Notes: generated from the sequence alone by a model not told the origin. A stretch of DNA of 64,000 nt from a bacterium (GCA_021781955.1 JAJXVV010000003.1:27933-91932); one strand, 5' to 3'. Positions 17,241-37,841 are shown, counted from the first letter of the stretch. Program-made: numbers and translations.

Positions 17241-17270
17241 GGTCGCATTACACCGTCTCACGTTCCTGCG
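17241..17270. repeat. direct repeat copy A (putative att-like site)
   Basis: ggtcgcattacaccgtctcacgttcctgcg matches 37812-37841 ggtcgcgaaacacggtctcacgttcctgcg at 26/30 positions, including a perfect 16-mer. Confidence 0.6.
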
Positions 17271-17689
17271 TGTGCCCAGACACTCAGACCGCCCGCATCG
17301 CCTCGGAGGCGAACGCACCAGCACACCCAGATACTTTTTGTCAAGGGCGCAGCTCTACGCTGTTCTTAGAACCTATTTTAGCAAAAATCAGGGCTGATCT
17401 GCCTAGTCATACAGGTAGTCATTCGGGGTGGCGCGGAATGACTACCCTCCGAATCTGGAAAAGGCACTGGCATCTTCGGCTCCAACCTGTATTTATCTGC
17501 GCGCGAAGCGCGCGGAGTAACTAAACCACAATGGGCTGCGCTGTGCGCAGCCAAAAATAATTTCCCTTTAGTTCCTATTGCGGTGAGGGTCGGTCTAGAA
17601 CCAACCTGTTTCAAGCATTGTAAGGGTTCTTTGGCGAGTTTGCGACCTGCCGATTTTAGGGGGAACGGTCGCTGAGAATGTTACAAACG

Positions 17690-18445
17690 TTACAACTTTT
17701 TGCGTAGTTTCTTGCGGGCCTCCCGCTTAGCCCTCCGATCCTCCCGTTGTCGCTTTTCTTCCTCTTCTCGCGCTTTCATCTCCTCAGGAGGAATGATGCG
17801 TAGATGGTCCATGATTTTGTAACCCTTGAGGGTCTCGCGCGGATCACCGAAGCAATACCACTCGTATGACCGATACCATGTCTGCCCATCGCGATCTTCC
17901 TTCACCAACTGAGATTCAACCAATTTCTTGGGCGGCAAGGTACCCTCGTTGTCCTTGATAAGGAACAGCCGTGCGTGTACGCGTCCCGCACCATCCGTCA
18001 CAGTGCGCGCCTTCAGTACTCCTTCTTTGATCCATCGTGTGACATCTGAGTGCTTCAGGTTGAATGCGCGCTGAAGTTCGTGTTCCCTGTAGTAACTCTT
18101 CTCGCGTTTCGCGAGAGACCCCGGGATTTCTTTTCGATCGACAGCTCCGTGGCACGTAAGGCAGGTGACGCCCCATTTGTCGTACCAGCTTCCTTCTTCC
18201 CGCGAACTCTCGTGGCAAATAGCGCACGTGCGACCACGGCCCTCAAGGACAAATCCTTTGGGAGACTCTTGGAGACGCTTCTTCCATCCTTGTTCCTTCA
18301 CCCAGAGCTCGTACAGAATCTCAGCCAACCCCGCCAGATTGCGCGAAGCTTCTTCCGCCTCCTCCCAGGTAACTTCCTTGCCCTCGCGCTTCTCGAGAAG
18401 CTCTTTCATTTTCTGAATGTGTTTTTTGTGTTCCTCCGCATCCAT
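17690..18445 (-). CDS. hypothetical protein with C-x2-C...C-x2-C zinc-ribbon-like motif and a lysine/arginine-rich C-terminal tail
   Basis: CAICH-x17-CLTCH. No signal peptide. Start at the MDAEEHKK Met (cat at 18443-18445). Confidence 0.5.
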   Translation of the reverse strand: MDAEEHKKHIQKMKELLEKREGKEVTWEEAEEASRNLAGLAEILYELWVKEQGWKKRLQESPKGFVLEGRGRTCAICHESSREEGSWYDKWGVTCLTCHGAVDRKEIPGSLAKREKSYYREHELQRAFNLKHSDVTRWIKEGVLKARTVTDGAGRVHARLFLIKDNEGTLPPKKLVESQLVKEDRDGQTWYRSYEWYCFGDPRETLKGYKIMDHLRIIPPEEMKAREEEEKRQREDRRAKREARKKLRKKL

Positions 18446-18870
18446 ACCTATATTCTGCCGAACTCGCGCAGCGAACGCTAACGGACGCGAGCGCTTGCAA
18501 ACGACGACAAACTGTTGTGTTATCCACAGCTCCCTCTTCCTGTCCAAAGACAATCTCCCCGGAATCCGTATGATGGAAGTACGCAGCTTACCGCGCGCCC
18601 TCACGAAGGGCCCGTAGGAAAGCGACGAGGCTGCAGGGCGCTACAGCCGCTGAGCAGAACCCTGCTCAGGCAAGGTGCGTAACACCGAAGACAGCGCTTC
18701 GGCCCTATCTTCAGACTCTGCGCTCCTTGGCCCTGATTCTCGGTCTCACGAAGACTCAGAATCCCAGAAAACAAAAACACGATTATTCACCGCGAGCGGT
18801 TCGCCGCTCTCGAATTAAGTGCTTTTGTTTGCGTGGGATTTTTTCTCGTGCACGCAAAGGCCTATGCACA

Positions 18871-20214
18871 ATGACCAATCAAGAATTGAAGATTACGTAT
18901 GTCCCCATTGAGACCCTTAAACACCCTGAACGGAATCCTCGCTTCTGGAGCAACGAGGTAAAGCTCCAGCTCAAAGAGAGCGTCACAAGACACGGGGTTG
19001 TCGACCCATTAATCATCAATACCGCGCCCGGCCGGGAGAACATCTGCATTGGTGGGAACTTGCGGTTGGAGGTCCTCAAAGAGCTCGGCCATAAAACAGT
19101 GCCGGTCGTCTCACTCTCCATCACCGACCCGAACAAGGAGCAGGAGCTCATATTGCGGTTGAATCGCAATGTCGCGGAGTTCGACGCGACGCTCCTCAGT
19201 GAGTTCGACGAGGCGTTCCTCAAAGACATCGGATTTTCGTCGGAAGAATTGGATGAGGTGTTTGAGGTCGAGAAAGACGAAGAACAATTCGACCTCGAAA
19301 AGGAATTAGACAAGCTCCAGATAGATCAGATCACCGTAGAGAAAGGAGACGTGTACGACCTCGATGGGTCACGTCTTAAATGCGGCGACTCTACTGTGGA
19401 GGCTGACGTGCTGGACCTAATGCGCGGAGAAAAAGCGGACATGTGCATGACCGACATGCCGTACCGCCTCAGTTACCTGAAGGGCAAAACGCGCAAAGGA
19501 AACCCAACGGTCGGCTTCGGTGCAAAAAGAAACCGCCGGTACCTCGAGACCGAGGCGCTGCCACCGGACTTCGTTGAGAAGTGGATGGGTAATGTTGCCA
19601 AGGTCGCTAACAAGGACTTTTCCATCATTTCCTACGAAAACTGGCGCAACATCCGCGAACAGTGGGACGTGATGGAGAAGCAAGGATGGAAGGTCCGCAA
19701 CATGATCGTCTGGCACCTCCCCACGAGGAACCAGGGCTATGCCGGCAAAAATATCTTGTTCTCGAAGCATGACATCGCGATGGTCGGCACGAGCGAAGCA
19801 CACAGCGGTCTCAACCTTGAGCCCGAGGACGGACTCTATGAGAACCAGTACGAAACTGCTCTCTTCGCGATCCAGGGTAAAGGTTCCCACTGGGAAAACT
19901 ACGGCAAAAACAAGAAGTACTGCCCGACGGATTTCATCGAGTTCAACGCAGCTGACGAGAAGTCTTCCGGGCAAGCGATCATCTACGGCGTAAAGCCGAT
20001 TGAGATCCTCCTGCCCTACATCAAAACGCTCACCAAGCGCGGTCAGCTCATCATTGAGCCCTTTGCGGGATCGGGTTCCACATTAATTGGAGCGAATACA
20101 CTTGGTCGCCGGTGCTTCGCGATGGAAAAAGTACCGACCTATGCCGAGGTCATCCTCAACCGATGGGAAAAGTTCTCTGGGAAGAAACGCGTAAAGATCC
20201 ATGCACAAGCGTGA
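18871..20214 (+). CDS. ParB-like nuclease domain / DNA methyltransferase fusion (beta-class N6A/N4C MTase)
   Basis: N-terminal ParB/Srx-like region (KITYVPIETLKHPERNPRFW...VVDPLIIN). Then DMPY (motif IV variant of DPPY) precedes the FAGSGST AdoMet-binding motif I, which is beta-class order. Common in phages and plasmids. Confidence 0.7.
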   Translation: MTNQELKITYVPIETLKHPERNPRFWSNEVKLQLKESVTRHGVVDPLIINTAPGRENICIGGNLRLEVLKELGHKTVPVVSLSITDPNKEQELILRLNRNVAEFDATLLSEFDEAFLKDIGFSSEELDEVFEVEKDEEQFDLEKELDKLQIDQITVEKGDVYDLDGSRLKCGDSTVEADVLDLMRGEKADMCMTDMPYRLSYLKGKTRKGNPTVGFGAKRNRRYLETEALPPDFVEKWMGNVAKVANKDFSIISYENWRNIREQWDVMEKQGWKVRNMIVWHLPTRNQGYAGKNILFSKHDIAMVGTSEAHSGLNLEPEDGLYENQYETALFAIQGKGSHWENYGKNKKYCPTDFIEFNAADEKSSGQAIIYGVKPIEILLPYIKTLTKRGQLIIEPFAGSGSTLIGANTLGRRCFAMEKVPTYAEVILNRWEKFSGKKRVKIHAQA

Positions 20215-21094
20215 TCAGATATCGGTACTTCTCAGCACGCTTGCTGAGGGACACACCATCACAGCCGCCTGCAAGCGAGCGGGTGTGTCCCGCATGTTCT
20301 ACGACCGCCACTACAAGAGCGACCTCGCGTTCAAGAAGCAGGTCGATGAAGTACGGAGAACCGGGCTTGAGACGAACAACGATCGCGTCGTCTCAGCCCA
20401 CATGAAGAAAATCAGTGACGGCGGCTGGCCTGCAATCAAGTACTACCTCGAACACAACGTCACTCCCTACAAGAAAATGGCCGACCGGCCCGAGCCCGTT
20501 CCTATGCACCCCGTACCGGAGACCCTCTCCGATGCCGAGGCATATGAGCAGTTCGTCCTTTGGAGCGCTCTCTCGCCCGAGGAGCGTTCCTGGCGTGGGA
20601 TTGAGACACGTGAGCAGTTCTGCAAAACCTACGGCGTTCCGAGCATCCGATTGCTTGATATCTGGGCACAGCGTCCAGACTTCGAACAACGCGTTGCCAC
20701 GCTCCGGGAAGACTGGATCATCCTCAAGACCGGTGAACTACTGGGCGACATCTATGGCGCTGCCCGAGGCGGTGATTTCAAGAGTCGGCGGCTCTGGCTG
20801 GAGTATGCCCGGCACATCAAGGAAAAGCGTGATGCTGCGGGACCGAAGCCGAATCTGATTTCGCCGGAGGACGTGCGCTACATAATCGGCATGTTGCCAG
20901 AAGCGCTACAGAATCTTAACTACATGCGCCTGGACAGCATCAGGGGTGACGTTGCCAGATACGAAAGAGAGCGGGAGCGTAAAGAGCATGAGCGGGCGGA
21001 GATTGAAGATCGAGCGAAGAAGGACGCTCTGATGGAGCACTACAGAAAGCCGGATGGAGAAATCGACTGGGGCGCGTATTCGGAGTCGTTGTAA
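20201..21094 (+). CDS. HTH DNA-binding protein (phage terminase small-subunit-like), hypothetical
   Basis: N-terminal HTH (TITAACKRAGVSRMFYDRHY). Translationally coupled to the MTase gene (14-nt overlap). The function call is weak. Confidence 0.4.
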   Translation: MHKRDQISVLLSTLAEGHTITAACKRAGVSRMFYDRHYKSDLAFKKQVDEVRRTGLETNNDRVVSAHMKKISDGGWPAIKYYLEHNVTPYKKMADRPEPVPMHPVPETLSDAEAYEQFVLWSALSPEERSWRGIETREQFCKTYGVPSIRLLDIWAQRPDFEQRVATLREDWIILKTGELLGDIYGAARGGDFKSRRLWLEYARHIKEKRDAAGPKPNLISPEDVRYIIGMLPEALQNLNYMRLDSIRGDVARYERERERKEHERAEIEDRAKKDALMEHYRKPDGEIDWGAYSESL

Positions 21095-21353: not shown

Positions 21354-21815
21354 CTACAGCCCAAGTAGCTGTTTCTTCTTGGCCGAAAACTCCTCGTCGG
21401 TAAGGACGCCTTTGTCTTTGAGTGCAGCAAGTCTCTCCAGATCGTCGACACCACTCGCATGACCAGCAAATCGGCCGAACCGCGCGTCATTAATAGCTTG
21501 CTCCCATGAGAGGAAATGGCTCGGAGAGGCGGCGGCAAAAATGAGTTGCCGGCGATCGTGGTGCACGAACTTTGCACGGCGTTCGGTGTTACCGTCTTTG
21601 TAGACGATGAAAAGATTGTCTTTAAAGTCCATCTTTTCCGTATTGACGCTCACGATGTTCAAGAGCGGCACGCGCAACAGTTCCTGGTTACGTTTCTTCG
21701 AAAGGAAATATACGTCACTCCTTGTAAGGACCAGTGAGCCTCTATGTGCCTTATGCCAAAAGCCATTGTGCTGTATAAGGTTGTCCTCTTTCTTCAAAAC
21801 TTGCTCTTCCGCCAT
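21354..21815 (-). CDS. PH-like (bPH/GRAM-like) domain protein with C-terminal SHOCT domain
   Basis: The C-terminus DDLERLAALKDKGVLTDEEFSAKKKQLLG matches the SHOCT short C-terminal oligomerisation motif. Confidence 0.5.
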   Translation of the reverse strand: MAEEQVLKKEDNLIQHNGFWHKAHRGSLVLTRSDVYFLSKKRNQELLRVPLLNIVSVNTEKMDFKDNLFIVYKDGNTERRAKFVHHDRRQLIFAAASPSHFLSWEQAINDARFGRFAGHASGVDDLERLAALKDKGVLTDEEFSAKKKQLLGL

Positions 21816-21973
21816 ATCGTTATGGTTAGGTTAAATAAAGCCGACCTTGTGTTCCTAGCTTAGTTTCAAGACCTTGCGAAGCGGGTTACCAACTCTTGCC
21901 TTTGAAGGGTATTCGTAGCCTACCATAATATCTAAAGTTTGGATATTCAGTTCTTGGATAGACGCTTATTGGT

Positions 21974-22192
21974 ATGGGAAAGAGCATCCATACCAAGGAG
22001 TACAAGGTTTTTGTAGAGCGCCTGAAGAAGGCCCGGATTGAGGCTGGCCTGACTCAAGTGCAAGCAGCAAAGAAACTAGGCCGCCCGCAGTCGCACATTT
22101 CGAATGTTGAGACTGGCCAGCAGCGCGTGGATATAGTGGAGCTTAAGCGGTTTGCGAAGCTCTACGGGAAGAGTATCGAGTACTTCCTCTAA
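21974..22192 (+). CDS. XRE-family HTH transcriptional regulator (Cro/CI-like)
   Basis: 72 aa. HTH LTQVQAAKKLGRPQSHISNVETGQ. Confidence 0.7.
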   Translation: MGKSIHTKEYKVFVERLKKARIEAGLTQVQAAKKLGRPQSHISNVETGQQRVDIVELKRFAKLYGKSIEYFL

Positions 22193-22968
22193 AAACTTTC
22201 GGAATCAACGGCGAGCCCGATCTGCCTTCCAATTGGCTTTATTAGCTTCTCTTCCAAGAGAGGAAAGTAGCTTGGCATAAATCGAAAAAGGCCAACCTTA
22301 GGGTATCGAGCTTCAATCGTGCTCGAAAAGAAAGAGGCGGAGAGATCGTCGATAATGTATTCAAGATCCGGATCTAGCAGCACCTTCTCGACATCGAGTC
22401 TGCGGCAATGGTCGTAGAATTTTTTGTACTCGTGTCGGTATCTCTTCACTGTCTCAATAACCTTTAGCGGATCTTCCAGCTCTTTGAATAGGATGAACGA
22501 CGTAAGCAGCGATTCTATTCCCTGGGTTAAGAGAATTTCATACCGCCCGCTGTCTTCCTTCTTATGATACAGAAATTTCGCGGAATCGATACAGTCTCTT
22601 CCGGTCGTATAAAAAGAAACGACGAGATCATCACGCCTATTTTGCGTAAGGACTGTCTCGAGGAATTCATCGATTCCAATGTCAGCTTCTCCCTTTCGTC
22701 GACGAGGATAGAACGTCGAGAGTTGGTCATCGCGATACACCAAAAGATGTGGGTAAAGAATGCCGCTCCCTGTCTGCCGTATCTGAATCTTAGCCAGTAT
22801 CGATTCTTTTAAGAGCTCATCTTTTATCTTTTGCGCATGATCAGATTCGGATATGATCTCAGTCTCAGTTCTAATGGGTAAACTACTCTTTTCAATGTCA
22901 TCTAAGAGAGCCAGCGTCTTGGATACGTCGTCGTGGGGGTTATAAATCAAGCGGAATACTATTCTCAT
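22189..22968 (-). CDS. hypothetical protein, compositionally foreign (AT-rich)
   Basis: 259-aa ORF spanning a marked local GC drop (visibly A/T-rich codons against an otherwise ~60% GC background). No motif recognised. Convergent with and overlapping the XRE gene by 4 nt. Confidence 0.5.
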   Translation of the reverse strand: MRIVFRLIYNPHDDVSKTLALLDDIEKSSLPIRTETEIISESDHAQKIKDELLKESILAKIQIRQTGSGILYPHLLVYRDDQLSTFYPRRRKGEADIGIDEFLETVLTQNRRDDLVVSFYTTGRDCIDSAKFLYHKKEDSGRYEILLTQGIESLLTSFILFKELEDPLKVIETVKRYRHEYKKFYDHCRRLDVEKVLLDPDLEYIIDDLSASFFSSTIEARYPKVGLFRFMPSYFPLLEEKLIKPIGRQIGLAVDSESF

Positions 22969-23043: not shown

Positions 23044-23829
23044 TCACACCACATGCGAGCGATCCACATCTATTCGAGTCGCTGCAAGGTACCAGATAAA
23101 CCCAACGAGCAGCACGGTGAGGACCAGACTGACTGTGCCATCGCCGAATCCAAGACCGCTGACGCTCGGTGCCTTGCCGAACCAGTCTGCAAACGAAGCA
23201 CCTAATGGGCGTGTGAGAATGTACGCGAGCCAGAATGCGAGCACAGCGTTGCGAGTCAGGTGCTCGTGGTGCTCGGAGAGCCAGCCCTTTGCGGCATAGT
23301 GGAAGATAGCGATGAGCGCGATAAGCCCGGCAAAAAGTAATCCTGCAGAGAGAAAGCCGAGGTTGAGGGTGAACGCCATCATGTCGCCCCATGCGGTGCC
23401 GAGCGCGAAGGTCGCGCACACGGTGAGCCAGTAGAATATTTCCCTTCGCCGCGTCGTAATGCTGTGAATGGATAGCGTCTTTTCAACCGCGTACCAGAGG
23501 ATAAAAATAACGACGAGCGACACGGCGAAGAATATGGTCGTGTAGAGGTACGGAATACCGATGACGATATGGAGGACATCTGCCCCCATCGTGCCGAATA
23601 CGGCAACCATGGTGACCGCGAGCCAGTACACCCACGCGTTGTATCGTGGCCACCAGAATTGGAGTGTGAGCGCAGCCGCGAATGCAAGCGCACCGATACC
23701 GACTGCGACGTACGGGTTGATGGAGTACACGAGGTAGTCGGACGCACTCTCACCGAGCGCGGTGGTAAGGAGTTTGACGATCCAGAAAAACGCCGTGATC
23801 TGGGGAACTTTTCGCAAACCCTGCCGCAT
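23044..23829 (-). CDS. polytopic membrane protein, paralog 1 (uncharacterised family)
   Basis: Shares FWI(V/I)K(L/I)L, AFWLAYI(L/M)TRPLGAS and other blocks with the upstream gene. Start at MRQGLRK is 1 nt after the upstream stop. Confidence 0.6.
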   Translation of the reverse strand: MRQGLRKVPQITAFFWIVKLLTTALGESASDYLVYSINPYVAVGIGALAFAAALTLQFWWPRYNAWVYWLAVTMVAVFGTMGADVLHIVIGIPYLYTTIFFAVSLVVIFILWYAVEKTLSIHSITTRRREIFYWLTVCATFALGTAWGDMMAFTLNLGFLSAGLLFAGLIALIAIFHYAAKGWLSEHHEHLTRNAVLAFWLAYILTRPLGASFADWFGKAPSVSGLGFGDGTVSLVLTVLLVGFIWYLAATRIDVDRSHVV

Positions 23830-23830
23830 A

Positions 23831-24685
23831 TCACTCTGGCATCGGAACGTGCTCCCTGCGCTGTTCCTCAATATCATCTTTGACGGTCTCAGCCGTGATC
23901 ACGTCACGCTTCGTCAGCGTCAGGAAGATGACGAGTGCGAGAATGGCGCCGAGGAAAATAAAACTCGTCATCGTCGTGCCAAGACCTAAGCCACCATCAC
24001 TTTGTGCTTGAGATAGATAATCGCCAATCGAGGCTCCGAGAGGGCGCGTCATGATGTACGCGAGCCAGAACGCAAGAACCGCATTCGAGGACACGTGCCG
24101 ATGCTCAATGCCCAGGACTGCTTTGAAGATGTAATGGGCCGCAGTAATAGCAGCGATAACGCCAGCAAAGATGAGGAGCGCCGTAAGGTACCCTAGGTTG
24201 AATTTCTCAGCTACCAGGTCGCCCGCCGCAGTGCCGAGCGCAAAAGTAAAGAGAATCGTGAGCCAGTAAAACGCCTCGCGACGCTTCGAGAAAATTGTGT
24301 GGATAGAGAGCGTCTTCTCGAACGCGAACCAGACCGCGAACGTGATCGCGAGGAGAATCGCGAACACCGTGGTGGTGGTCGTGAGCGACACGCCGAGATT
24401 GTCGGTGAGGTTGTCTGTGATGAGCGTGCCGACAACGCTGATAAATACGACGGCAAGCCAGTAGATTGAGGGAACGTACCTTTTCGCTCGGAACTGGAAG
24501 AAGAGAATGACGATGAGGATGGCCCCCATTACCAAGCTCGTGCCGTTGAGCCCAAAGCCAAGCGTCGTATTCAAATAATCGGCCGCGGTCTCGCCCACGG
24601 TCGTGCAAAGAATTTTTATGATCCAAAAGTACAGCGTTACTTCCGGAACCTTATTGAGCATTTGTTGCCATTTTGACGGCCCCAT
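23831..24685 (-). CDS. polytopic membrane protein, paralog 2 (uncharacterised family)
   Basis: Tandem duplicate of the downstream gene. The start is uncertain (Met at 24685 or 24661). An AT-rich promoter-like region lies upstream at 24700-24780. Confidence 0.55.
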   Translation of the reverse strand: MGPSKWQQMLNKVPEVTLYFWIIKILCTTVGETAADYLNTTLGFGLNGTSLVMGAILIVILFFQFRAKRYVPSIYWLAVVFISVVGTLITDNLTDNLGVSLTTTTTVFAILLAITFAVWFAFEKTLSIHTIFSKRREAFYWLTILFTFALGTAAGDLVAEKFNLGYLTALLIFAGVIAAITAAHYIFKAVLGIEHRHVSSNAVLAFWLAYIMTRPLGASIGDYLSQAQSDGGLGLGTTMTSFIFLGAILALVIFLTLTKRDVITAETVKDDIEEQRREHVPMPE

Positions 24686-24955: not shown

Positions 24956-24967
24956 CTCACTGTCGCC

Positions 24968-25606: not shown

Positions 25607-25657
25607 AGTAAGGGTGTTAATGGTTGGTAATGTCTGCTAATAATCGCTGCGACCGCA

Positions 25658-26635: not shown

Positions 26636-26636
26636 A

Positions 26637-30636: not shown

Positions 30637-30727
30637 AGTGACAACACTATATAGGAGTACGTAAGTTTTGTGTAAAGCGCAAACCCCCTCGCATGGGAGG
30701 GGGTTTGGGGACTCAGACTTGGAAGCT

Positions 30728-31108
30728 TTACTGCTCCGATGTGTCTGAAGAGCCGGCCGGCTCGCTCGCTTCGCTCTGCGCGCTGCCATCGCCATCGCCT
30801 TGTGCTGAGACGCTCGCGTGCTGCGTGCCGCTTACCGCGGCATCTGTGCCGCCGTTGCCGTCCTGATGCTCACCCTGCTGGTCGAGGGTCGATCCCGGAC
30901 CCGCCTGCACGTTGTCAGTGTCCGCCTGATCGTTCGCCGTTTCCGGCTTATCGACCGTGCCTTGCACGGAGTTGGCCGAGGAGGTAACGACCGGAGTATT
31001 GGACGTGGCGGTCGTTTGCGCGCTTGCCATGAGCGCCGTTCCGCCTGCTGCCCCCGCGAGCGCCATCATGCCCGCTGTCGCAAGAAGCAATGCCTTGTTC
31101 TTTAACAT
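30728..31108 (-). CDS. secreted acidic low-complexity protein (hypothetical)
   Basis: Signal peptide MLKNKALLLATAGMMALAGAAGG followed by a T/S/D/G/Q-rich sequence. Confidence 0.4.
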   Translation of the reverse strand: MLKNKALLLATAGMMALAGAAGGTALMASAQTTATSNTPVVTSSANSVQGTVDKPETANDQADTDNVQAGPGSTLDQQGEHQDGNGGTDAAVSGTQHASVSAQGDGDGSAQSEASEPAGSSDTSEQ

Positions 31109-31217
31109 ACAACTTTACTGTTAACTAATAACAGCAAGAGTATAGAGAGCGGCACGTAAAGTATCTGTAAAAGTACGGCGTACAAACTTTTCCGAAGCGT
31201 TTCTCAGAGCAAATCAA

Positions 31218-31676
31218 TTACGCACGATAAAAGCGGTTCATTGCGACTTTCCACGCGGATACAGCAATGAGCGCGAATACCACACTCGCAACGACGTCGA
31301 GCGGATGATGGAGACCGACATATACGCGCGCCGCGGCAACGAGTATCGCGATGGCCCACAGGGCAATGCCGAGCCACTTGTTCCAAAACATACCGACCGC
31401 AGCAAAAGCCGAGACAAGGAGGGTGTGATCGGACGGAAATCCGTTATCGGGCGCATGCGGGAGCAGCGGTGTGAAGTGTCCGACGACGAACGGGCGCGGA
31501 TCGAAGTACAGGTGGTTGGCAAGAAAACCGAGTGCATAGGTGAGCAGCCCGGCGGGGATGGCGAATAGAGCGAGGCGCACCCATGAAGCACGCGGCTGGG
31601 AGAAGAAATATGCGCCAAGAATGATGATGGGCAGTGCTATCCCGTACTGGGCTATGAATTCGAAAAATGCGTCCAT
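31218..31676 (-). CDS. PAP2-family phosphatase (undecaprenyl-diphosphatase-like)
   Basis: PSDHT and GLHHPLDV motifs (PAP2 signatures), 4 TM. Confidence 0.7.
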   Translation of the reverse strand: MDAFFEFIAQYGIALPIIILGAYFFSQPRASWVRLALFAIPAGLLTYALGFLANHLYFDPRPFVVGHFTPLLPHAPDNGFPSDHTLLVSAFAAVGMFWNKWLGIALWAIAILVAAARVYVGLHHPLDVVASVVFALIAVSAWKVAMNRFYRA

Positions 31677-31745
31677 GTTTTTCAGCAGTCGTAGCTACCT
31701 AGTATAATCCCCATGAACCATTCGCGACGAACGGTATCAAGCTGC

Positions 31746-32495
31746 CTACAGTTTATCGAACTGATACCCCTGCGCTTTCAACTTTGGCACGATCTGCTCA
31801 AGCACAATGAGGCTTTCTGGAGCATTCGGTCCGCCGATGTGCATGAGGATGGTTCCGCCGTTCGCAGCATGGGAAAGTATCGCGTGCACGATCGCGTCCG
31901 CATTCTTGTTGAACGGATCGCCGGCGATATCGGTGCCGTCATTGATGGCGTACCCGAGGCTCTTCACGAACGCGTCGTTTTGCGCGTTGGTGCACGCGCC
32001 GGGGAATCGGAAAAGAGTCGTCGTCTGCCCCGTGTCTTCCTTGATGATCTGTTCCGTCTCCTGTATCTGCCGGATCTTCTCCTGGTCGGTCGTGAGCGTC
32101 CTGAGCCAATAGCAATGCGGAACAAAAGACGATTCGTCGTAGCTGTGGTTCTCAAACCCAAATTGACTGGTTGAGGCGAGGCTGTGCATTAGATCGGGGT
32201 ATGCGACGGCGAAAAGCCCCGAAACGAAGAAGGTTGCCGGGATATGATTCTGTTCAAGGTACGAAAACACCGCCGGGTCATACCACACCTTGCCTGCACT
32301 GCGTATCTTCCGGTACATCAGCTCGTTCATGTCCATATCGAGCGTGAGGTAGATTATTTTTTGCGGGGCGACTTCCGACGATGTGGCGGCTGTCGCCGGA
32401 GCCGCTGCAGGCGGGAGCACCGGCTGATGCGAGAGCCCGACCAACGAAGAAACGGCCATGGTTATTCCGGCCAAGAGTGATGCAAAGATATGCAT
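31746..32495 (-). CDS. polysaccharide deacetylase (NodB homology domain), secreted
   Basis: Signal peptide, TFFVSGLFA, HSYDE, ILMHIGG-type NodB motifs. Confidence 0.65.
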   Translation of the reverse strand: MHIFASLLAGITMAVSSLVGLSHQPVLPPAAAPATAATSSEVAPQKIIYLTLDMDMNELMYRKIRSAGKVWYDPAVFSYLEQNHIPATFFVSGLFAVAYPDLMHSLASTSQFGFENHSYDESSFVPHCYWLRTLTTDQEKIRQIQETEQIIKEDTGQTTTLFRFPGACTNAQNDAFVKSLGYAINDGTDIAGDPFNKNADAIVHAILSHAANGGTILMHIGGPNAPESLIVLEQIVPKLKAQGYQFDKL

Positions 32496-32551
32496 TTCTA
32501 AAATCTACCATTATCGCGGCGTAATGCGCTTATACGGTATCATTACAGGTA

Positions 32552-33721
32552 ATGCGAGAAAAGTTTTTCGGTCTTCCTAGGAATATTTTCCTACTCGGCC
32601 TCACGAGTCTCTTCAACGACTTCTCGTCTGAGATGGTGTTTTCGATCTTTCCCGCGTTCTTCATCTCGGCGCTCCACGCAGGAGCGGCATCGCTCGGGCT
32701 GGTGGACGGCATCGCCGAGGCGACATCCAACCTCTTCAAAATCTACTCGGGCAGTCTCTCAGACAGGCTTGGGCGTCGCAAACCGCTCGTAATCTCGGGC
32801 TACGCGCTCTCGGTCGTGACGCGGCCTTTCTACATACTCGTTTCGACGGTCAGCGGCGTACTCGGCTTGCGCGTTATCGACCGCCTCGGTAAGGGGTTGC
32901 GCACGGCTCCACGCGACGCCATCATTTCGCTCTCGTCGGAGAAGAACGAGCTCGGCCGCTCGTTCGGCTTTCACCGCGCCATGGACACGACGGGGGCGAT
33001 ACTCGGGCCCTTGGTCGCGTACCTCATCCTGCGGACGTTCCCGCTCCAGTTCAACTACGTATTCCTTACTGCGTTCGGCGTCGGCTTGCTCACGCTTCTC
33101 ACGCTAGCATTCATCTCGGATGTTGCCACGCATGGCAACGCGCAACGCGCCCAACTCTTGGCGTCGTTCAAAGAACTCTCTCCGCGCTTCAAGCTTTTTC
33201 TCCTCGCCGTGTTCGTACTCTCGGCCGGAAGCCTGCCGGTCGCGGTGGTGCTTCTCAAGACAGCGTCACTCGGCCTTGCAGTCGCCGACATTCCACTCTT
33301 TTTTGCCGTGTATAGCATCTCCTATGCGATCTTCTCCATACCGGCCGGAAGGCTCTCCGATCATGTCGGGGCACGCACCGTCATCTTCGTCGGCTATCTT
33401 GTCCTCATCGCCAGCTATGCTGTGCTCAATTTCGCATACGGCGCGTGGACGCTCGCCATTGCCTTTCTCGTGTTCGGCCTATTTCCCGCGCTCACGGACG
33501 GCGTGCAGCGTTCTCTTGCTGCACGGCTCACGGGCGAGACTGTTCGCGGCGGCGGTTTGGGATGGCTCAATGCATCGGTCGGGTTTGGCGCACTTCTTGC
33601 GGGCATAGCGGGAGGATATTTATGGCAGACATACAGCCCGACAACCGCATTTTTCACTGGTGGCATTGTTGTGATGTTTGGACTCCTGCTTCTCCTCGTT
33701 TCAGGAAGCCAGAAGGGCTAG
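32552..33721 (+). CDS. MFS transporter
   Basis: 12-TM MFS topology with a DRLGRRKP-type motif between TM2 and TM3. Confidence 0.7.
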   Translation: MREKFFGLPRNIFLLGLTSLFNDFSSEMVFSIFPAFFISALHAGAASLGLVDGIAEATSNLFKIYSGSLSDRLGRRKPLVISGYALSVVTRPFYILVSTVSGVLGLRVIDRLGKGLRTAPRDAIISLSSEKNELGRSFGFHRAMDTTGAILGPLVAYLILRTFPLQFNYVFLTAFGVGLLTLLTLAFISDVATHGNAQRAQLLASFKELSPRFKLFLLAVFVLSAGSLPVAVVLLKTASLGLAVADIPLFFAVYSISYAIFSIPAGRLSDHVGARTVIFVGYLVLIASYAVLNFAYGAWTLAIAFLVFGLFPALTDGVQRSLAARLTGETVRGGGLGWLNASVGFGALLAGIAGGYLWQTYSPTTAFFTGGIVVMFGLLLLLVSGSQKG

Positions 33722-33781: not shown

Positions 33782-35119
33782 TTGGGGTGTATGGACACCA
33801 TTACGAGGGCACCCCTGGGCGGTATTAGCAGGCAGGCCGTACAAGCGCCCGTAAGGATCAAATACTGCCTGTATGCAAGAAAGAGCACCGAGAGTGAGGA
33901 GCGGCAGGTGCTTTCGATAGATAGCCAGATCAAGGAGATGCTCCAGCTGGCCGACCGAGAAGGGCTTGAGGTAGTGGAGATGAAGCGCGAGTCTCACTCG
34001 GCAAAGGAAACTGGCAAGCGGCCGGTATTCAATGAGATCGTCGACGAGCTCCGGGCTGGCAAGTATAACGGTATCCTCACCTGGGCACCGGATCGTATCA
34101 GCCGTAACGCCGGGGACCTTGGCAAGATTGTCGACCTCATGGATGCGGGAGCATTGATGGAGATTCGCACATACGGTCAGAGTTTCAAGAATAATCCGAA
34201 TGAGAAGTTCCTTCTCATGATTCTCGGCTCGCAAGCCAAACTCGAGAACGACAATCGCGGAGTGAACGTGAAGCGCGGGTTGCGGACGCGCTGCGAGATG
34301 GGTTTGCGGCCGGGCGTAGCACCGGTCGGCTACAACAACGAGAAGCATGCTGACAAGAAGTGCCACGCAATCGTTGATCCGGCGCGCGCGCCGATCGTGA
34401 AGCAGATGTTTGAGAAAGTCGCCAACGAGAAGTGGAGCGGCAGGCGCATACACCAGTGGCTCAAGTTCGAGCTCAACTTCAAGAGTCGGGGCAACAAGAA
34501 CATGACGCTTAGCAGCGTGTACGTAGTACTCCAGAACCACTTCTACTACGGCATGTTTGAGTACCCGGTAAACAGCGGGAATTGGTACGAGGGCAGACAC
34601 CAGCCGCTCATCACCAAAGAATTGTTCGACAAGACGCAAGAGCAACTCAAGCGCGACCGGATCGTGCGCTCCGACATTAAGGAATTTGCCTTCACCAAGC
34701 TTATGGTATGCGGCCTGTGTGGCTCCGGCATCTCCGCTGACGAGAAGTTTAAGAAGCTCAAGGATGGAACCTCTAACCGCTATGTGTACTACGGCTGCAC
34801 CCGAGCGCGGGACAAGAGCTGTAAGGGCGGCTACGTGCGCGAGGAGGCGCTCATCGAGCAGATGGTGAAAGTGATGGACAAGGTCGATTTCAACAAGATG
34901 GCCATGCGTGACAAGTTCGAGGCCGAGGTAGAGCGCATGCGGAAGTTCCAGCGTGCATTCACTGGCGGAGATGATGCCAAACCACGGAAGGACATAGATC
35001 TGTGCGACTACGCGAAGTACCTGCTCAAGGAAGGCAGCGTTACGGAAAAACGAGAGCTGCTACTTTGCATCAAAAGCAAGCTGGTGCTTACCAGAAGCGA
35101 ATTGAAACTCGAAAACTAG
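33782..35119 (+). CDS. large serine recombinase (resolvase/integrase family)
   Basis: N-terminal resolvase domain with nucleophile context YARKSTESEE and a conserved GILTWAPDRISRN block, then a recombinase domain and a zinc-ribbon (CGLCGS...YYGC...C). About 445 aa. Confidence 0.8.
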   Translation: MGCMDTITRAPLGGISRQAVQAPVRIKYCLYARKSTESEERQVLSIDSQIKEMLQLADREGLEVVEMKRESHSAKETGKRPVFNEIVDELRAGKYNGILTWAPDRISRNAGDLGKIVDLMDAGALMEIRTYGQSFKNNPNEKFLLMILGSQAKLENDNRGVNVKRGLRTRCEMGLRPGVAPVGYNNEKHADKKCHAIVDPARAPIVKQMFEKVANEKWSGRRIHQWLKFELNFKSRGNKNMTLSSVYVVLQNHFYYGMFEYPVNSGNWYEGRHQPLITKELFDKTQEQLKRDRIVRSDIKEFAFTKLMVCGLCGSGISADEKFKKLKDGTSNRYVYYGCTRARDKSCKGGYVREEALIEQMVKVMDKVDFNKMAMRDKFEAEVERMRKFQRAFTGGDDAKPRKDIDLCDYAKYLLKEGSVTEKRELLLCIKSKLVLTRSELKLEN

Positions 35120-36052
35120 TTATCTAGAATCGAGGTCTCGCGTCTCGCCATTTATGTAATCAGGAATATCTCGGTTCTTTTCACTGATGATCCTTTCCAT
35201 CTCATCAATTTGACGAATTGTGGGTTTATCGTCGTGACGCATAGCAATTTGACGTCCTTTTGCAAGATATCGTTTTGCTGCTCGGAATCGATATGCAGTC
35301 TTCAGATCATTGGCTAAGTTATGGTATGCGATCGCGGCAAGAGGATCATTCAATTCCTCAAACAACGCTGCGGCAACAAGAAAGCTGTCGGTAAATTTCT
35401 TAACATGGGCATTTAATTTGCGGGCATCACCGTTTGAAAGCAGTAACAAATATTCAGGCAGAGGATAACGCATAAATTCGTATCTGCTCCAAAGTTTTGT
35501 TCGCAGACCACCGCGCATGCAAACGACCTTGTATTGTATATAACGAGAACTTTCAATGCTGCCTTTCGCCATTAAAACAAGTGCTTGAATTCTCTTATTT
35601 CCAGTTTGGTTTGCAAGTGAAATAGCATCGGCGAGCGAGCTATCAATCCCGGCTTCGAGTGTCTGCACTTCAGCAGATAATGAGTCAAACTCCTGTTTTT
35701 CAGCTTCGGTCGCAAACTCGACCCATCTTGGCGGGAGTTTTAGCATCGCCATTCGATGGCGACGCAGCACAACCTGATGCATTGACATATCTGCAAGGCG
35801 TCCCAAAAAATGAGCGCGAAGATCCTTTAAATTTAGTGCTGAGGTTATCTTTAACCCTTCTACGAGGAGAGCCAATATTTTCAGATTGTCTTCCACTGGA
35901 GATAGAACACCAATGGCTACATCGATAAATTGAAGGCGGGTGTGAGGATCTTTAATTTGAGGATCCAGCTTTAACAAGTTGGCACGCGCTTGAGTACGCT
36001 TGCCCTCCGACGCCAAAGTAAGCGCTTTTTTAATTTCATCTTTTTGTGACAT
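35120..36052 (-). CDS. hypothetical alpha-helical protein (third gene of HNH/DUF4238-like cassette)
   Basis: 310 aa. Lower GC than its surroundings. Its start overlaps the upstream gene end by 17 nt; its stop abuts the recombinase stop (convergent, 0-nt gap). Confidence 0.5.
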   Translation of the reverse strand: MSQKDEIKKALTLASEGKRTQARANLLKLDPQIKDPHTRLQFIDVAIGVLSPVEDNLKILALLVEGLKITSALNLKDLRAHFLGRLADMSMHQVVLRRHRMAMLKLPPRWVEFATEAEKQEFDSLSAEVQTLEAGIDSSLADAISLANQTGNKRIQALVLMAKGSIESSRYIQYKVVCMRGGLRTKLWSRYEFMRYPLPEYLLLLSNGDARKLNAHVKKFTDSFLVAAALFEELNDPLAAIAYHNLANDLKTAYRFRAAKRYLAKGRQIAMRHDDKPTIRQIDEMERIISEKNRDIPDYINGETRDLDSR

Positions 36053-36962
36053 GGCGATATTGGTACCACAATTTTAATTCATGCCAGCGCATCGAAGCTT
36101 GGTGTCGCAGTATTTTAAGAATAAAGAAAAAGTCCAGCGGATAGCGGCGGTACCAATGGCGACGAGCTCTTGAGCTGTTTGCTATAAAGTATTTATAAGA
36201 ATGCCCCACAGTCATACGGTTCGATTCCTCAACCTCAGTTTTATCCCTGAGTACATACCCCCGTAACGGGCTTCGGCTCATGCAAAGTAATATCTCTGGA
36301 GAAAGTGGAAGATACACCTCGACTCGTTCTTGCCCAAGGTCAGGACCGTAAGCACGCTGCCATTGGAGTTCAGGATTGAATACCTGACAAGGGTCGTCAG
36401 AGGTGATGTATTTTGCGCCCCCATCCGAACAGAGGAAGGCGATGTTCATATCCATGAGCATCATTGCCACATCAGGCAGGAGCTGAACGAAATTCAGCTT
36501 ATGGCCATTTTCCATTTCTTGCTTTAGGCCTTGGCGTTCTTCTGGAGTAACGTCGGGGCTCATTTGTTCCATCAACTGATCGTGAAAGCGCTGCATGTTA
36601 TCCCTGAAGCGTGGCGTACGTTGAAGCATCGCTGCAACGAATACACGTAACGTTATGCGTTCGTCTTCAGTGAGTGGTAATCGCTGACTGATCTTATCTT
36701 TGAAAAGAGCTGCATATTTTCCTTCAAGGGTCGCTAGCGTTTCTTCGATGGAATAGTTTTTCTCGCCAGACTTCAGCTTAAGCGTGTATAGATCCTTTTC
36801 AACGAAAACGTTCGTTATCGAACTTTTACGGCCCTTCTTCTCGCCTTTATTAAAAGTCCAGAGATAGGAGGTCTTTCTAAAAAGGAAGTCCGAAGCGGCC
36901 CACTCTCGTAGGTAGCATTGCGGAACGTAATGTTGTCTGGTTGGACCTTTTGCCACGACCAA
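36036..36962 (-). CDS. DUF4238-like protein (hypothetical)
   Basis: The N-terminus TRQHYVPQCYLREW matches the HYVPQ-YL motif I recall as defining DUF4238. TTG/GTG start with AGGGG about 7 nt upstream. AT-richer than the host background. Confidence 0.5.
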   Translation of the reverse strand: MVVAKGPTRQHYVPQCYLREWAASDFLFRKTSYLWTFNKGEKKGRKSSITNVFVEKDLYTLKLKSGEKNYSIEETLATLEGKYAALFKDKISQRLPLTEDERITLRVFVAAMLQRTPRFRDNMQRFHDQLMEQMSPDVTPEERQGLKQEMENGHKLNFVQLLPDVAMMLMDMNIAFLCSDGGAKYITSDDPCQVFNPELQWQRAYGPDLGQERVEVYLPLSPEILLCMSRSPLRGYVLRDKTEVEESNRMTVGHSYKYFIANSSRARRHWYRRYPLDFFFILKILRHQASMRWHELKLWYQYRHVTKR

Positions 36963-36990
36963 ACGATACCCCTACTTTGTCTTTTCCGCA

Positions 36991-37767
36991 CTAAGGAGCG
37001 AAAGGGTCTAGGGCATCATGATTTGGAGATACGTTCCTTTCGGAAATTCCCAGTGCTGCGCCCTGCGGGACAAGACCCGATGGAAGAACATAGAAACCTG
37101 CACAACCTCTCGCGTCTTGGTCGCGTACCTTACCCAAGTCTTTCCAATCGTAAACATCGAGCGCGAAGAAGCACATCCATGGACCGTTGTTATCCGCCTG
37201 ATTCCAAACACATTCATAGGTAAGATTACCTTTGTTACACTGGACTTTATCGAGATTGTTTTTCGCGCGATTGTCTTTTATAGCTTGAACGAATGCAGCG
37301 TGCTGAGGAAGGATCGGATCGATAACCGGCTTACCATGTACCATGCGCCCGCGAGGAAATGGGGTTACGAGTGCACAGTTATCTCGTATATCGAGCACCG
37401 GTTCTTTGTATAGAGCGGCATGAAAGCCGCTGATCCAGCGCCATACAGCTTCGTCAACATCCAAGTTCGTGAGGGCACCAAGTTGTGGATTTATGACCAG
37501 GCGGCGATGTTTCGGATCCGATGGTTTTTTGCCGTACCGAAGTGCGATAAGCTGGGCAATCTTTTCATCGGTTAAGGTGTGCGCACTGTTGCAAGCTTGG
37601 TGCGTCGGCAAAATCAAGGGATCTTTATGATCCGTTTGGAAGATAGAGTCGGGCGGAACATGATCGCGATTTTTGACATCTCCTGCCGCGAACATTTTCC
37701 CGCACAAATAGCAGAACGGAAGGTTCTGCACTGGGCGACGTTCAGTTTGCGTAATGAGCGAAATCAT
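36991..37767 (-). CDS. HNH-nuclease-domain protein (N-terminal HNH-like motif plus about 190-aa unknown C-terminal domain)
   Basis: C-x2-C ... NRDHVPP ... HQACNSAH follows the HNH pattern (Zn ligands plus catalytic His-Pro). Start at MISLITQ (cat at 37765-37767). The longer ORF-track version (to 38058) reads through tRNA-Ser and is an artefact. Confidence 0.5.
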   Translation of the reverse strand: MISLITQTERRPVQNLPFCYLCGKMFAAGDVKNRDHVPPDSIFQTDHKDPLILPTHQACNSAHTLTDEKIAQLIALRYGKKPSDPKHRRLVINPQLGALTNLDVDEAVWRWISGFHAALYKEPVLDIRDNCALVTPFPRGRMVHGKPVIDPILPQHAAFVQAIKDNRAKNNLDKVQCNKGNLTYECVWNQADNNGPWMCFFALDVYDWKDLGKVRDQDARGCAGFYVLPSGLVPQGAALGISERNVSPNHDALDPFAP

Positions 37768-37811
37768 ATTGAGTCGGACTATTTTACGACGAAAACGCCC
37801 CGACGTGGGAC

Positions 37812-37841
37812 GGTCGCGAAACACGGTCTCACGTTCCTGCG
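37812..37841. repeat. direct repeat copy B (abuts/overlaps by 2 nt the 3' end of tRNA-Ser)
   Basis: See copy A at 17241-17270. Confidence 0.6.

What the first reader, a model, noticed from the sequence alone, without database searches (positions are those of the whole stretch)
17241..37841. 30-bp direct repeat pair, one copy abutting tRNA-Ser, brackets about 20.6 kb containing phage and mobile-element-like genes
ggtcgcattacaccgtctcacgttcctgcg (17241-17270) and ggtcgcgaaacacggtctcacgttcctgcg (37812-37841) are identical at 26/30 positions. The right copy overlaps the last 2 nt of tRNA-Ser(CGA). Between them lie a ParB-MTase fusion, a terminase-small-subunit-like HTH gene, a SHOCT protein, an XRE regulator, an AT-rich orphan gene, a large serine recombinase and the HNH/DUF4238-like cassette. 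Apparently ordinary host genes (ABC-2, TCS, MFS) also lie between them. This looks like attL/attR of a tRNA-targeting integrative element, possibly composite or decayed. One caveat: serine recombinases normally leave only a 2-bp crossover identity, not 30-bp direct repeats, and no tyrosine integrase is present, so the mechanism is unclear.
Basis: seen in the sequence. Interest (0 to 1): 0.6.

Follow-up and report, generated by a model that had tools for sequence, protein, structure and literature searches.

The report
Serine-recombinase island stacked at tRNA-Ser
The 20.6-kb stretch is a real mobile island that a large serine recombinase inserted right after a serine tRNA gene in a candidate-phyla-radiation bacterium, and the two 30-bp repeats are recombinase-site arms contributed by two successive elements, not a duplication made by one insertion.

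Summary
The repeat is real: 26/30 identical, extending to 33/41, and not expected by chance. The tRNA-Ser(CGA) lies where stated, and GC and tetranucleotide composition shift between about 17 and 38 kb.

The mobile unit W runs from a TGCGG core at 17579-17583 to the same core at 37838-37842, which is 20,259 bp. Its left end is a conserved ~95-nt element whose start resembles the tRNA-Ser 3' end. Its right end is the conserved arm that forms the right repeat copy.

A 110-kb metagenome contig carries W, with all 12 proteins in the fetched stretch 100% identical. It also carries a second 13.3-kb element, N, with an 84%-identical recombinase. N sits exactly between W's right arm and the tRNA. That comparison places the crossover within 5 nt and shows that no repeat is created.

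The left repeat copy lies 308 nt outside W. It matches right-end modules found next to tRNA-Ser genes in other organisms, so it is most likely a relic arm of an older element.

Relatives of this recombinase in 39 of 39 informative loci from species-representative genomes, almost all of them CPR, sit just upstream of a convergent tRNA (Ser, Gln, Asp and others). The closest functional analogue is SCC stacking at rlmH.

The parts
17160..17270 (.). X: a relic right-end module of an older element. It abuts the ADH stop codon at 17152.
   Evidence: 84-88% identical to two modules in L021, one abutting tRNA-Ser(GCT) and the other a tRNA-like stub. By eye, the right-end sequences of L016 and L024 look similar. 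Logan contig L001 ends exactly at 17270.
17271..17578 (.). V: a 308-nt non-coding spacer with three hairpins. It is probably the remnant of another decayed element, and its right end was the target arm when W integrated.
   Evidence: No homolog in any fetched locus except contigs of the same strain. It lies outside W by the boundary evidence. Sequence read.
17579..17583 (.). TGCGG core of W's left junction (attL crossover region).
   Evidence: Anchored junction table. The W variant L107 diverges from the window immediately to the left of GCGG.
17580..17673 (.). P': the conserved ~95-nt left-end element of the element family. Its first ~23 nt resemble the tRNA-Ser 3' end (T-arm-like hairpin plus acceptor 3' strand). 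A conserved CAAGC-N3-GTAAGG box and a GGGGGAACGGTC motif follow.
   Evidence: 82-85% identical in L010, L012, L014 and L025. nhmmer finds it in L090, L098 and many elements of the tRNA-Gln clade. It matches the tRNA 3' end at 18/27 positions. Only a T-arm-like hairpin is predicted.
17690..18445 (-). 251-aa protein with a Zn-ribbon (CxxC...CxxC) and an HTH-like segment. It is a conserved left-end gene and a candidate directionality or regulatory factor (inference).
   Evidence: 303 homologs at E <= 1e-5, the few named sources being CPR. It sits next to ParB-MTase in L012, L068, L094 and L098. No Pfam, PHROG or PADLOC hit.
18865..20214 (+). ParB-N / N6-N4 DNA methyltransferase fusion (backbone gene).
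   Evidence: Pfam PF02195 + PF01555. phrog_498 at 5e-71. Homologs lie upstream of the recombinase in 31 of the 66 GTDB loci.
20201..21094 (+). Small-terminase-like HTH protein of 297 aa (backbone gene).
   Evidence: phrog_24579 terminase small subunit at 7.8e-6. Weak PF13022 hit. The syntenic proteins of relatives (140 aa in N, 135 aa in L049) also hit TerS PHROGs.
21354..22968 (.). PH-SHOCT protein (21354-21815, minus strand), XRE-type HTH (21974-22192, plus strand) and a low-GC orphan of 259 aa (22189-22968, minus strand).
   Evidence: SHOCT synteny is conserved in L094.
23044..33721 (.). Cargo block: two DUF347 proteins, a 212-aa protein, two ABC-2 permeases plus an ABC ATPase, a VTT/DedA protein, a histidine kinase and response regulator, a 126-aa protein, PAP2, a polysaccharide deacetylase and an MFS transporter.
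   Evidence: Pfam, Pfam families listed for L098. The part from the ABC ATPase to the MFS gene is 100% identical at protein level in L098. Composition is intermediate but still foreign.
33782..35119 (+). Large serine recombinase, the integrase of W. It is transcribed towards the tRNA. The true start is probably a few codons inside this ORF, because the gene is called at 442 aa in L098.
   Evidence: PF00239 + PF07508 + PF13408. 84% identical to the recombinase of element N. Family-wide link to a convergent downstream tRNA.
35120..37767 (-). Variable cassette between the recombinase and the right arm: a 310-aa unknown, DUF4238 (308 aa) and a 258-aa unknown. It may be a defence cassette.
   Evidence: PF14022 at 1.8e-43. 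PADLOC DUF4238-Pers at 1e-10. In relatives the equivalent position holds M78+HTH or helicase+MTase.
37801..37841 (.). P arm: W's conserved right-end recombinase-site arm.
   Evidence: The same ~30-nt motif abuts tRNA-Ser genes of different isoacceptors and organisms in 18 metagenome loci, while the sequence beyond it is unrelated.
37838..37842 (.). TGCGG core of W's right junction, which is also the insertion point of element N in L098/L099.
   Evidence: Comparing the window with L098 and L003 places the exchange between positions -5 and +2 of the junction.
37839..37926 (-). tRNA-Ser(CGA), the integration target (B' half-site). It is left intact.
   Evidence: ARAGORN. Rfam RF00005 at 59.3 bits.

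Best explanation
The interval is the product of repeated site-specific integration by large serine recombinases (LSRs) just 3' of tRNA-Ser(CGA) in a CPR (Patescibacteria) genome.

The present element, W, is 20,259 bp from core to core (17579-37842). From left to right it carries:
- a left-end site P' that resembles the tRNA 3' end;
- a conserved backbone of a Zn-ribbon/HTH protein, a ParB-methyltransferase and a small-terminase-like protein;
- about 10 kb of transporter and signalling cargo;
- the LSR gene;
- a variable cassette;
- a conserved ~35-41-nt right arm, P.

The LSR exchanges strands within a TGCGG core at the last bases of the tRNA gene. This joins P to the tRNA and P' to whatever lay downstream of the tRNA. 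It makes no target duplication.

After integration both junctions have the form [arm]-TGCGG-[tRNA or tRNA-like sequence], so they stay usable as targets. Elements therefore accumulate in tandem, and older ones decay to their arms.

A 308-nt remnant, V, lies between X and W.

Shown: the boundaries of W, the crossover window, tandem stacking in the same population, the mobile nature of the arm motif, and the family-wide association with tRNAs.

Inferred: that X and V are relics, that the LSR tolerates P-type left arms, the roles of P' and of the 251-aa protein, and whether W is still active.
For: - Composition. GC and tetranucleotide content shift between about 17 and 38 kb.
- Tandem array. L098 (a 110.8-kb ENA contig) and L099 (a separate NCBI assembly) carry W's right arm joined at ...cacgttcctgcg|gtgagggtcggtc... 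to the 13.3-kb element N. N ends with its own arm next to the same tRNA in L003, L004 and L005. Host flanks are 99.95% identical. The 12 W proteins within the fetched stretch of L098 are 100% identical.
- Crossover. The arms of W and N differ at position -5, and P' differs from the tRNA at +2. The exchange therefore lies within TGCGG and nothing is duplicated.
- Left boundary of W. A 98%-related copy of W (L107) diverges from the window immediately to the left of GCGG. Homology with L012, L010, L014 and L025 also ends there.
- The arm motif travels with elements. The same ~30 nt abut tRNA-Ser(GCT) and tRNA-Ser(CGA) genes of different organisms, and the sequence further out is unrelated. By eye, L014 and L015 share hairpin plus arm next to different isoacceptors. 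Other tRNA-Ser genes in L040 and L083, not adjacent to the recombinase, have unrelated trailers.
- X is mobile DNA. It is 84-88% identical to two modules in L021.
- [P-type arm]-core-[P'] junctions, sometimes combining arms of different clades, occur in L010, L090, L045, L049, L083 and L021.
- Family pattern. In 66 GTDB loci the first tRNA downstream of the LSR gene is on the opposite strand in 39 of 39 cases. There are 60 tRNAs downstream against 4 upstream.
- Assembly breaks fall exactly at junctions: L001 at 17270; L103, L100 and L101 at the start of N's P'.
Against: - No circular attP junction and no restored empty site for W itself was found. Exact-pattern scans of JGI metagenomes and GTDB genomes for the empty site predicted from the repeat found nothing. 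The Logan and ENA reads could not be searched by DNA.
- L001 ends exactly at 17270.
- V's left end is only a poor match to P'.
- Well-studied LSRs (phiC31, Bxb1) recombine attP only with attB, so integration next to a P-type arm is unorthodox. L098 shows that it happened, but not which site pair was used. N inserting into P_W-tRNA and W inserting into arm-P'_N give the same array.
- L022 has the arm motif next to tRNA-Ser(GCT) with no LSR within 12 kb. That could be a scar or a native sequence.
- The resemblance of P' to the cognate tRNA is modest, at 13-18 of 27 positions.
Confidence: 0.72

Rival explanations
1. One 20.6-kb element (17271-37841) integrated into a native attB. The left arm of that attB is the 41-nt sequence at 17230-17270. 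The two repeats are attL and attR, the element's arm having evolved to resemble the host's tRNA trailer or terminator.
For: - L001 ends exactly at 17270, so the sequence after X varies in that sample.
- The left copy, read on the tRNA strand, is a hairpin followed by T6, like a native tRNA terminator.
- The composition shift starts near 17 kb.
- SCC elements, also moved by LSRs, are flanked by repeated att sequences (the repeat length is from my own knowledge).
Against: - A 98%-related copy of W has different DNA to the left of the GCGG core at 17580.
- The neighbouring element N starts with the P' sequence, not with anything like 17271 onward.
- X is homologous over 110 nt to mobile modules in other organisms, next to a different tRNA-Ser isoacceptor.
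- Other tRNA-Ser genes in L040 and L083 show unrelated trailers.
- The hairpin energy is not unusual (z = 0.04).
Confidence: 0.15
2. The motif is a native, functionally constrained 3' trailer of tRNA-Ser genes in this lineage, for example a processing or termination signal. Under this model the islands were exchanged by homologous recombination between such conserved trailers and not by the serine recombinase.
For: - L022 has the motif with no recombinase within 12 kb.
- The motif always directly follows a tRNA-Ser or a tRNA-like sequence.
Against: - The motif differs between two otherwise 99.95%-identical strains exactly according to which element sits next to the tRNA.
- It follows different isoacceptors in different organisms.
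- The analogous arms of the tRNA-Gln and tRNA-Asp clades group with recombinase identity band and target tRNA type, not with host.
- The N insertion is precise to within 5 nt, with no flanking homology apart from the arm.
Confidence: 0.08
3. A tyrosine integrase, now lost or encoded elsewhere, made the repeat. This is the usual mechanism for islands at tRNA genes.
For: Direct repeats of tens of bp at tRNA 3' ends are the hallmark of tyrosine-integrase islands (general knowledge; cites Williams 2002 and Islander).
Against: - No tyrosine recombinase was found among the island proteins scanned.
- The repeat includes only 2-3 nt of the tRNA.
- The N insertion shows an exchange window of at most 5 nt.
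- An LSR gene lies beside the tRNA in 39 of 39 informative relatives.
Confidence: 0.03

Closest known systems
SCC / SCCmec elements of staphylococci (CcrAB/CcrC large serine recombinases, integration at the 3' end of rlmH) and the Enterococcus cassette chromosome
   Same: - LSR-driven insertion at the 3' end of a conserved housekeeping gene.
- Repeated att sequences flank each unit.
- Tandem stacking of full and recombinase-less cassettes that share att sites.
- Cargo rich in defence and accessory genes.
PMC11470126 documents the tandem SCC-like cassettes flanked by additional att sites and moved by Ccr.
   Different: - The target is a tRNA gene end, not rlmH.
- The host is CPR, not Firmicutes.
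- There is a single recombinase gene.
- The backbone is phage-derived (ParB-MTase, TerS, sometimes TerL and a CI/LexA-like repressor).
- The element's left site resembles the tRNA.
- Homology to Ccr was not tested.
Phage-type large serine integrases (phiC31, Bxb1, TP901-1, A118)
   Same: - Domain architecture of Resolvase + Recombinase + Zn ribbon.
- Short sites, a crossover core of a few nt and no target duplication.
   Different: - Those integrases usually target protein-coding genes and recombine strictly attP with attB (my own knowledge).
- Here the targets are tRNA 3' ends.
- Integration occurred next to a resident element's arm, so the two substrates look alike.
tRNA-integrating genomic islands with tyrosine integrases (Islander-type; P4, SaPI/PICI-like)
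   Same: - A tRNA 3' end as target, with the integrase gene near the tRNA.
- Accretion of islands and remnants at the tRNA.
- The element carries a tRNA-like segment in its att site.
- The size (9-20 kb) and the repressor + TerS content resemble phage satellites.
   Different: - The recombinase is a serine, not a tyrosine, enzyme.
- The crossover is at the very last bases of the tRNA, so no tRNA fragment is displaced.
- Helper dependence is unknown.

Membership tests
Large serine recombinase (serine integrase) | N-terminal resolvase catalytic domain, followed by a recombinase domain and a zinc-ribbon domain | tested here: met
   PF00239 at 3.8e-19, PF07508 at 2.5e-14 and PF13408 at 8.6e-9, in that order. 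A YARKST...R motif carrying the candidate catalytic Ser is visible in the translation. This is sequence reading only.
Large serine recombinase (serine integrase) | Strand exchange at a very short core with no target-site duplication | tested here: met
   Comparing the window (unoccupied by N) with L098/L099 and L003 (occupied) confines the exchange to TGCGG.
Large serine recombinase (serine integrase) | Strict attP x attB pairing, with dissimilar attP and attB arms | tested here: inconclusive
   N (or W) integrated next to a P-type arm, and P' resembles the tRNA half-site. Which pair of sites reacted cannot be told from the sequence.
Integrative genomic island at a tRNA gene (Islander definition) | An integrase-encoding segment bounded by the tRNA gene and a displaced copy of the tRNA's 3' fragment | tested here: not met
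   The repeat covers only 2-3 nt of the tRNA. The element's left end carries only a diverged tRNA-like sequence, 18/27 identical.
Integrative genomic island at a tRNA gene (Islander definition) | Sporadic presence or absence among near-identical strains, with precise ends | tested here: met
   Element N is present in L098, L003 and L096 and absent from the window, with flanks 99.95% identical. A variant of W occurs in another context.
SCC-like cassette arrays | LSR-dependent cassettes stacked in tandem at one chromosomal site, separated by repeated att sequences | tested here: met
   W and N in L098. A module pair in L021. Relics X and V in the window.
SCC-like cassette arrays | Ccr-family recombinase and an rlmH target | not tested
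   The target here is a tRNA. No comparison with CcrA, CcrB or CcrC was run, so this is claimed only as a functional analogue.
Prophage | Genes for capsid, portal and tail | tested here: not met
   PHROG scans of W's non-cargo proteins and of the L049 element found only TerS, TerL, ParB-MTase and repressor-type hits. TerL is absent from W. The cargo block of W was scanned with Pfam only.
Phage satellite (PICI-like) | Integrase + repressor + packaging-redirection gene (TerS) in 10-15 kb, mobilised by a helper phage | not testable with these tools
   Relatives have the gene content, and W partly so (XRE and TerS-like genes). Helper dependence cannot be tested here.

The most novel reading that the evidence does not exclude
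A very large family of serine integrases, found almost only in CPR bacteria, has specialised in the last bases of tRNA genes. Target choice is clade-specific (Ser, Gln, Asp, Lys, Met, Arg). The att sites are 'look-alike': the element's attP resembles a tRNA end plus trailer. Every integration therefore regenerates usable targets, so satellite-like and defence-carrying elements stack and shuffle modularly at tRNA genes. This would be an SCC-like system, but at tRNAs, and a main route of gene flow in these reduced genomes.
Probability: 0.4. Interest if true: 0.72.

Novelty: new variant of a known kind. Interest (0 to 1): 0.6.

Why it matters
Mobile elements of CPR/Patescibacteria are poorly described, and serine integrases are generally thought to avoid tRNA genes.

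This locus, together with its natural occupied and unoccupied versions, gives base-level att sites for a large integrase family, with at least 7,951 proteins at E <= 1e-100.

It shows that transporters, signalling genes, restriction-modification and other defence genes move as cassettes at tRNA genes in these tiny genomes.

It also explains how long imperfect direct repeats can flank a serine-recombinase island without being made by the recombinase.

The defined arm, core and tRNA sites could be tested directly as new integrase tools.

Tried and rejected
- Empty-site search. The exact pattern 'left copy + tRNA' gave 0 hits in JGI metagenomes and 0 in GTDB genomes.
- IMG/VR. There were no matches for the 251-aa protein, for the P' element or for the P-P' circle junction. 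Only 3 distant recombinase relatives were found. They were scanned for tRNAs, P' and backbone genes but not characterised further.
- Rfam over 17.1-38.2 kb found only the two tRNAs above the gathering threshold. No known RNA family covers the repeat or P'.
- The idea that the repeat is just a terminator hairpin was dropped. Folding energy is ordinary for the window's copies (z = 0.04 and -0.41), and by eye the hairpin is not conserved among the arms.
- The idea that P' is a structured RNA was dropped. Only a T-arm-like hairpin is predicted, with almost no covariation.
- Dyad symmetry between the right arm and the sequence from 17271 onward was checked by eye. Only one AGACCG/CGGTCT hexamer pair was found, which is not convincing.
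- ADH and MFS protein look-ups did not return any long contig crossing W's left junction in another arrangement.
- No second recombinase remnant was found elsewhere in the window.
- Literature searches found no description of serine integrases targeting tRNAs in CPR.

Full report
**Observation**

The pair extends to 41 nt (17230-17270 and 37801-37841) at 80% identity. A 17-nt core with up to 2 mismatches occurs only at these two sites in 64 kb, where 0.03 matches are expected.

tRNA-Ser(CGA) is on the minus strand at 37839-37926 (Rfam). The right copy is therefore the first ~40 nt of the tRNA's 3' trailer and overlaps the gene by 2-3 nt.

GC falls from 0.60-0.65 to 0.44-0.58 over the 1-kb bins from 17 to 38 kb. 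Tetranucleotide distance to the flanks is 0.020-0.039 inside the interval and mostly 0.010-0.016 outside, so the 'ordinary' transporter and signalling block is foreign too.

**A natural occupied/unoccupied pair**

I used exact-protein look-ups of host genes on the right flank. They found contigs L003, L004 and L005 whose flank and tRNA are 99.95% identical to the window. These contigs carry a different island, N, next to the tRNA. N has a recombinase 84% identical to the window's.

Following N's left-end protein led to L098, a 110.8-kb ENA contig, and to L099, from a separate NCBI assembly. In L098 the 12 proteins of the window's island that fall in the fetched stretch, from the tRNA-proximal 258-aa protein to the ABC ATPase, are 100% identical.

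N is 13.3 kb. It encodes a 459-aa Zn-ribbon/HTH protein, a ParB-methyltransferase, TerS, TerL (phrog_38, 5e-66), a type II restriction-modification pair, the recombinase, and an M78 peptidase with an HTH protein. It sits exactly between the window's right repeat and the tRNA.

The junction reads ...gggacggtcgcgaaacacggtctcacgttcctgcg|gtgagggtcggtctagaaccaacctgttccaagcag.... The two partners share only about 5 nt, so this cannot be an assembly chimera, and it appears in separate assemblies.

Three junctions can be compared:
- window: ...ttcCtgcg|gAgaggg;
- L098: ...ttcCtgcg|gTgaggg;
- L003: ...ttcGtgcg|gAgaggg.

The exchange therefore lies within TGCGG (window 37838-37842), and nothing is duplicated.

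**Where the element really ends**

N's left end is a conserved element of about 95 nt. The window has the same element at 17580-17673, 17 nt beyond the stop codon of the 251-aa gene. It is also present at 82-85% identity in L010, L012, L014 and L025. It is recognisable in L090, and in many elements that sit next to tRNA-Gln.

Its first ~23 nt resemble the tRNA-Ser 3' end: GCGGTGAGGGTCGGTCTAGAACC against GCGGAGAGGGAGGGATTCGAACC, and 18/27 overall. On the tRNA strand it folds into a T-arm-like hairpin.

A copy of the island with a 98%-identical 251-aa protein, on another contig (L107), matches the window up to GCGG and has unrelated sequence to the left of it.

The mobile unit W therefore runs from the core at 17579-17583 to the core at 37838-37842, which is 20,259 bp.

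**What the repeat is**

A metagenome scan for 'arm + tRNA end' returned 18 loci. In these, the same ~30-nt motif (GGTCGCGWAACACSGTCTCACGTTCCTGCG) abuts tRNA-Ser genes of different sequence. Most are tRNA-Ser(GCT) and one is tRNA-Ser(CGA). Everything beyond the motif is unrelated.

Recombinase genes or remnants 81-87% identical to the window's are seen where the contigs are long enough. L012 has the same backbone order as W. The two near-identical strains differ in this motif according to which element adjoins the tRNA. In species-representative genomes the arms next to tRNA-Ser, tRNA-Gln and tRNA-Asp fall into groups that track recombinase identity band and target tRNA type and not the host. 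Other tRNA-Ser genes in the same loci have unrelated trailers.

The motif is therefore the element-borne half-site, the P arm.

The left copy, X, together with the 70 nt upstream of it (17160-17270), is 84-88% identical to two modules in L021. One of these abuts tRNA-Ser(GCT). The other abuts a tRNA-like stub that heads a 2.6-kb unit with no recombinase.

Junctions of the form [P-type arm]-core-[P'] are common, and the arm is sometimes of a different clade. Examples are L010 and L090 (CCGATA-type arm), L045 and L049 (tRNA-Gln clade, where the duplicated right-end module spans about 150 nt), and L083.

The simplest reading is that elements stack at the tRNA and older ones decay to their arms. 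X is then such a relic, and V (17271-17578) is another. I hold this step less firmly than the others.

**Family context**

The recombinase has at least 7,951 relatives at E <= 1e-100. The 66 loci found in species-representative genomes are almost all from CPR/Patescibacteria, and the best match, at 78% identity, is a Candidatus Kaiserbacteria chromosome.

Across those loci there are 4 tRNAs in 443 kb upstream of the recombinase gene and 60 in 439 kb downstream. The first downstream tRNA is on the opposite strand in 39 of 39 loci. The recombinase-to-tRNA gap ranges from 89 nt to 9 kb. The tRNA type groups by recombinase identity band: Ser, Gln and Asp, plus Lys, Met and Arg.

Where both ends are visible, the elements are 9-20 kb. 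The tRNA-Gln-type element in L049 has this order: P', three unknowns, a CI/LexA-like repressor, one more unknown ORF, ParB-MTase, TerS, TerL, the recombinase, a helicase + methyltransferase cargo, the P arm and the tRNA. The scanned proteins show no capsid, portal or tail genes.

These elements look like phage satellites or stripped prophages that carry defence and accessory cargo. W has lost TerL and gained about 10 kb of transporter and two-component-system genes.

**Comparison with known systems**

The enzyme is a member of the large serine recombinase family by domain architecture and by the short-core exchange.

The locus behaves like SCC/SCCmec arrays at rlmH, where Ccr recombinases move tandem cassettes separated by repeated att sites (PMC11470126). 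Here, however, the target is a tRNA end, the backbone is phage-derived and the host is CPR. It is an analogue, not a member.

It does not meet the classical definition of a tRNA island, which requires a displaced tRNA fragment as the repeat. It is not a complete prophage.

I found no description of tRNA-targeting serine integrases in CPR in the searchable literature. Absence from that library is not proof of novelty.

**Open points**

- No circle junction or restored site for W itself was seen.
- L001 stops exactly at 17270, so something other than V follows X in that sample.
- The order of insertion of W and N cannot be told.
- Integration beside a P-type arm is unorthodox for serine integrases, and the site pair used is unknown.
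- L022 shows the arm motif without a recombinase within 12 kb.

**Verdict**

The best explanation is a serine-recombinase island at tRNA-Ser, with the repeat formed by the arms of successive elements (confidence about 0.7). It is a new variant of a known kind. Interest is 0.6.

Noticed in passing
L098 1-11496 (ENA ERZ27233572 k141_1612923); also L096, L099 and L003: A second 13.3-kb element, N, is stacked between W and tRNA-Ser. It carries TerS, TerL, a type II restriction-modification pair (840-aa methyltransferase and 404-aa endonuclease) and an M78 peptidase with an HTH protein. It is present or absent among near-identical strains.
   Followed up: yes
L028-L093 (66 loci from GTDB species-representative genomes): Relatives of the recombinase are almost all from CPR. 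In 39 of 39 informative loci a convergent tRNA lies 89 nt to 9 kb downstream. The tRNA type (Ser, Gln, Asp, Lys, Met, Arg) groups by recombinase identity band.
   Followed up: partly
L049 2563-16199: The tRNA-Gln-type element has a repressor, ParB-MTase, TerS, TerL, the recombinase and a helicase + methyltransferase cargo, but no structural phage genes among the proteins scanned. Its gene content resembles a phage satellite.
   Followed up: partly
window 17690-18445 (-); homologs P0001-P0340: A Zn-ribbon + HTH-like protein family has no Pfam, PHROG or PADLOC match and hundreds of members (303 at E <= 1e-5). In the elements examined it sits at the left end, next to ParB-MTase. The longer forms of 440-460 aa have an extra N-terminal half. 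It is a candidate recombination directionality factor or regulator.
   Followed up: partly
L022 12100-12176: The arm motif abuts tRNA-Ser(GCT), but the 12 kb beside it hold ordinary-looking genes by reading of the translations (an endonuclease V-like, a PilM-like and a glycosyltransferase-like protein) and no recombinase. It is either a scar of a lost element or a native sequence.
   Followed up: partly
L083 6560-8090: Several arm-tRNA-fragment and arm-P' junction remnants are stacked upstream of a tRNA-Ser(GCT) whose own trailer is unrelated. This looks like a graveyard of past integrations.
   Followed up: no
L010 3111-4353; L025; L014 166-2624; L021 1597-4248: Miniature or decayed units of 0.9-2.7 kb keep both the P' and P ends but have no intact recombinase. 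L014 retains a 30-aa recombinase fragment. They may be non-autonomous cassettes.
   Followed up: partly
window 23044-24838: Two adjacent DUF347 membrane-protein paralogs are about 45% identical at protein level and include a 74-nt DNA repeat at 72% identity.
   Followed up: no
window 50000-54000: A second stretch has lower GC (0.56-0.57) and a somewhat raised tetranucleotide distance (0.016-0.019). It might be another acquired segment.
   Followed up: no
window 39497-39979 and 40624-41568: There are duplicated FMN-binding-domain proteins, 67% identical over 93 aa, with a 237-nt DNA stretch at 75% identity. They flank an ApbE gene in the host operon downstream of the ECF sigma factor.
   Followed up: no
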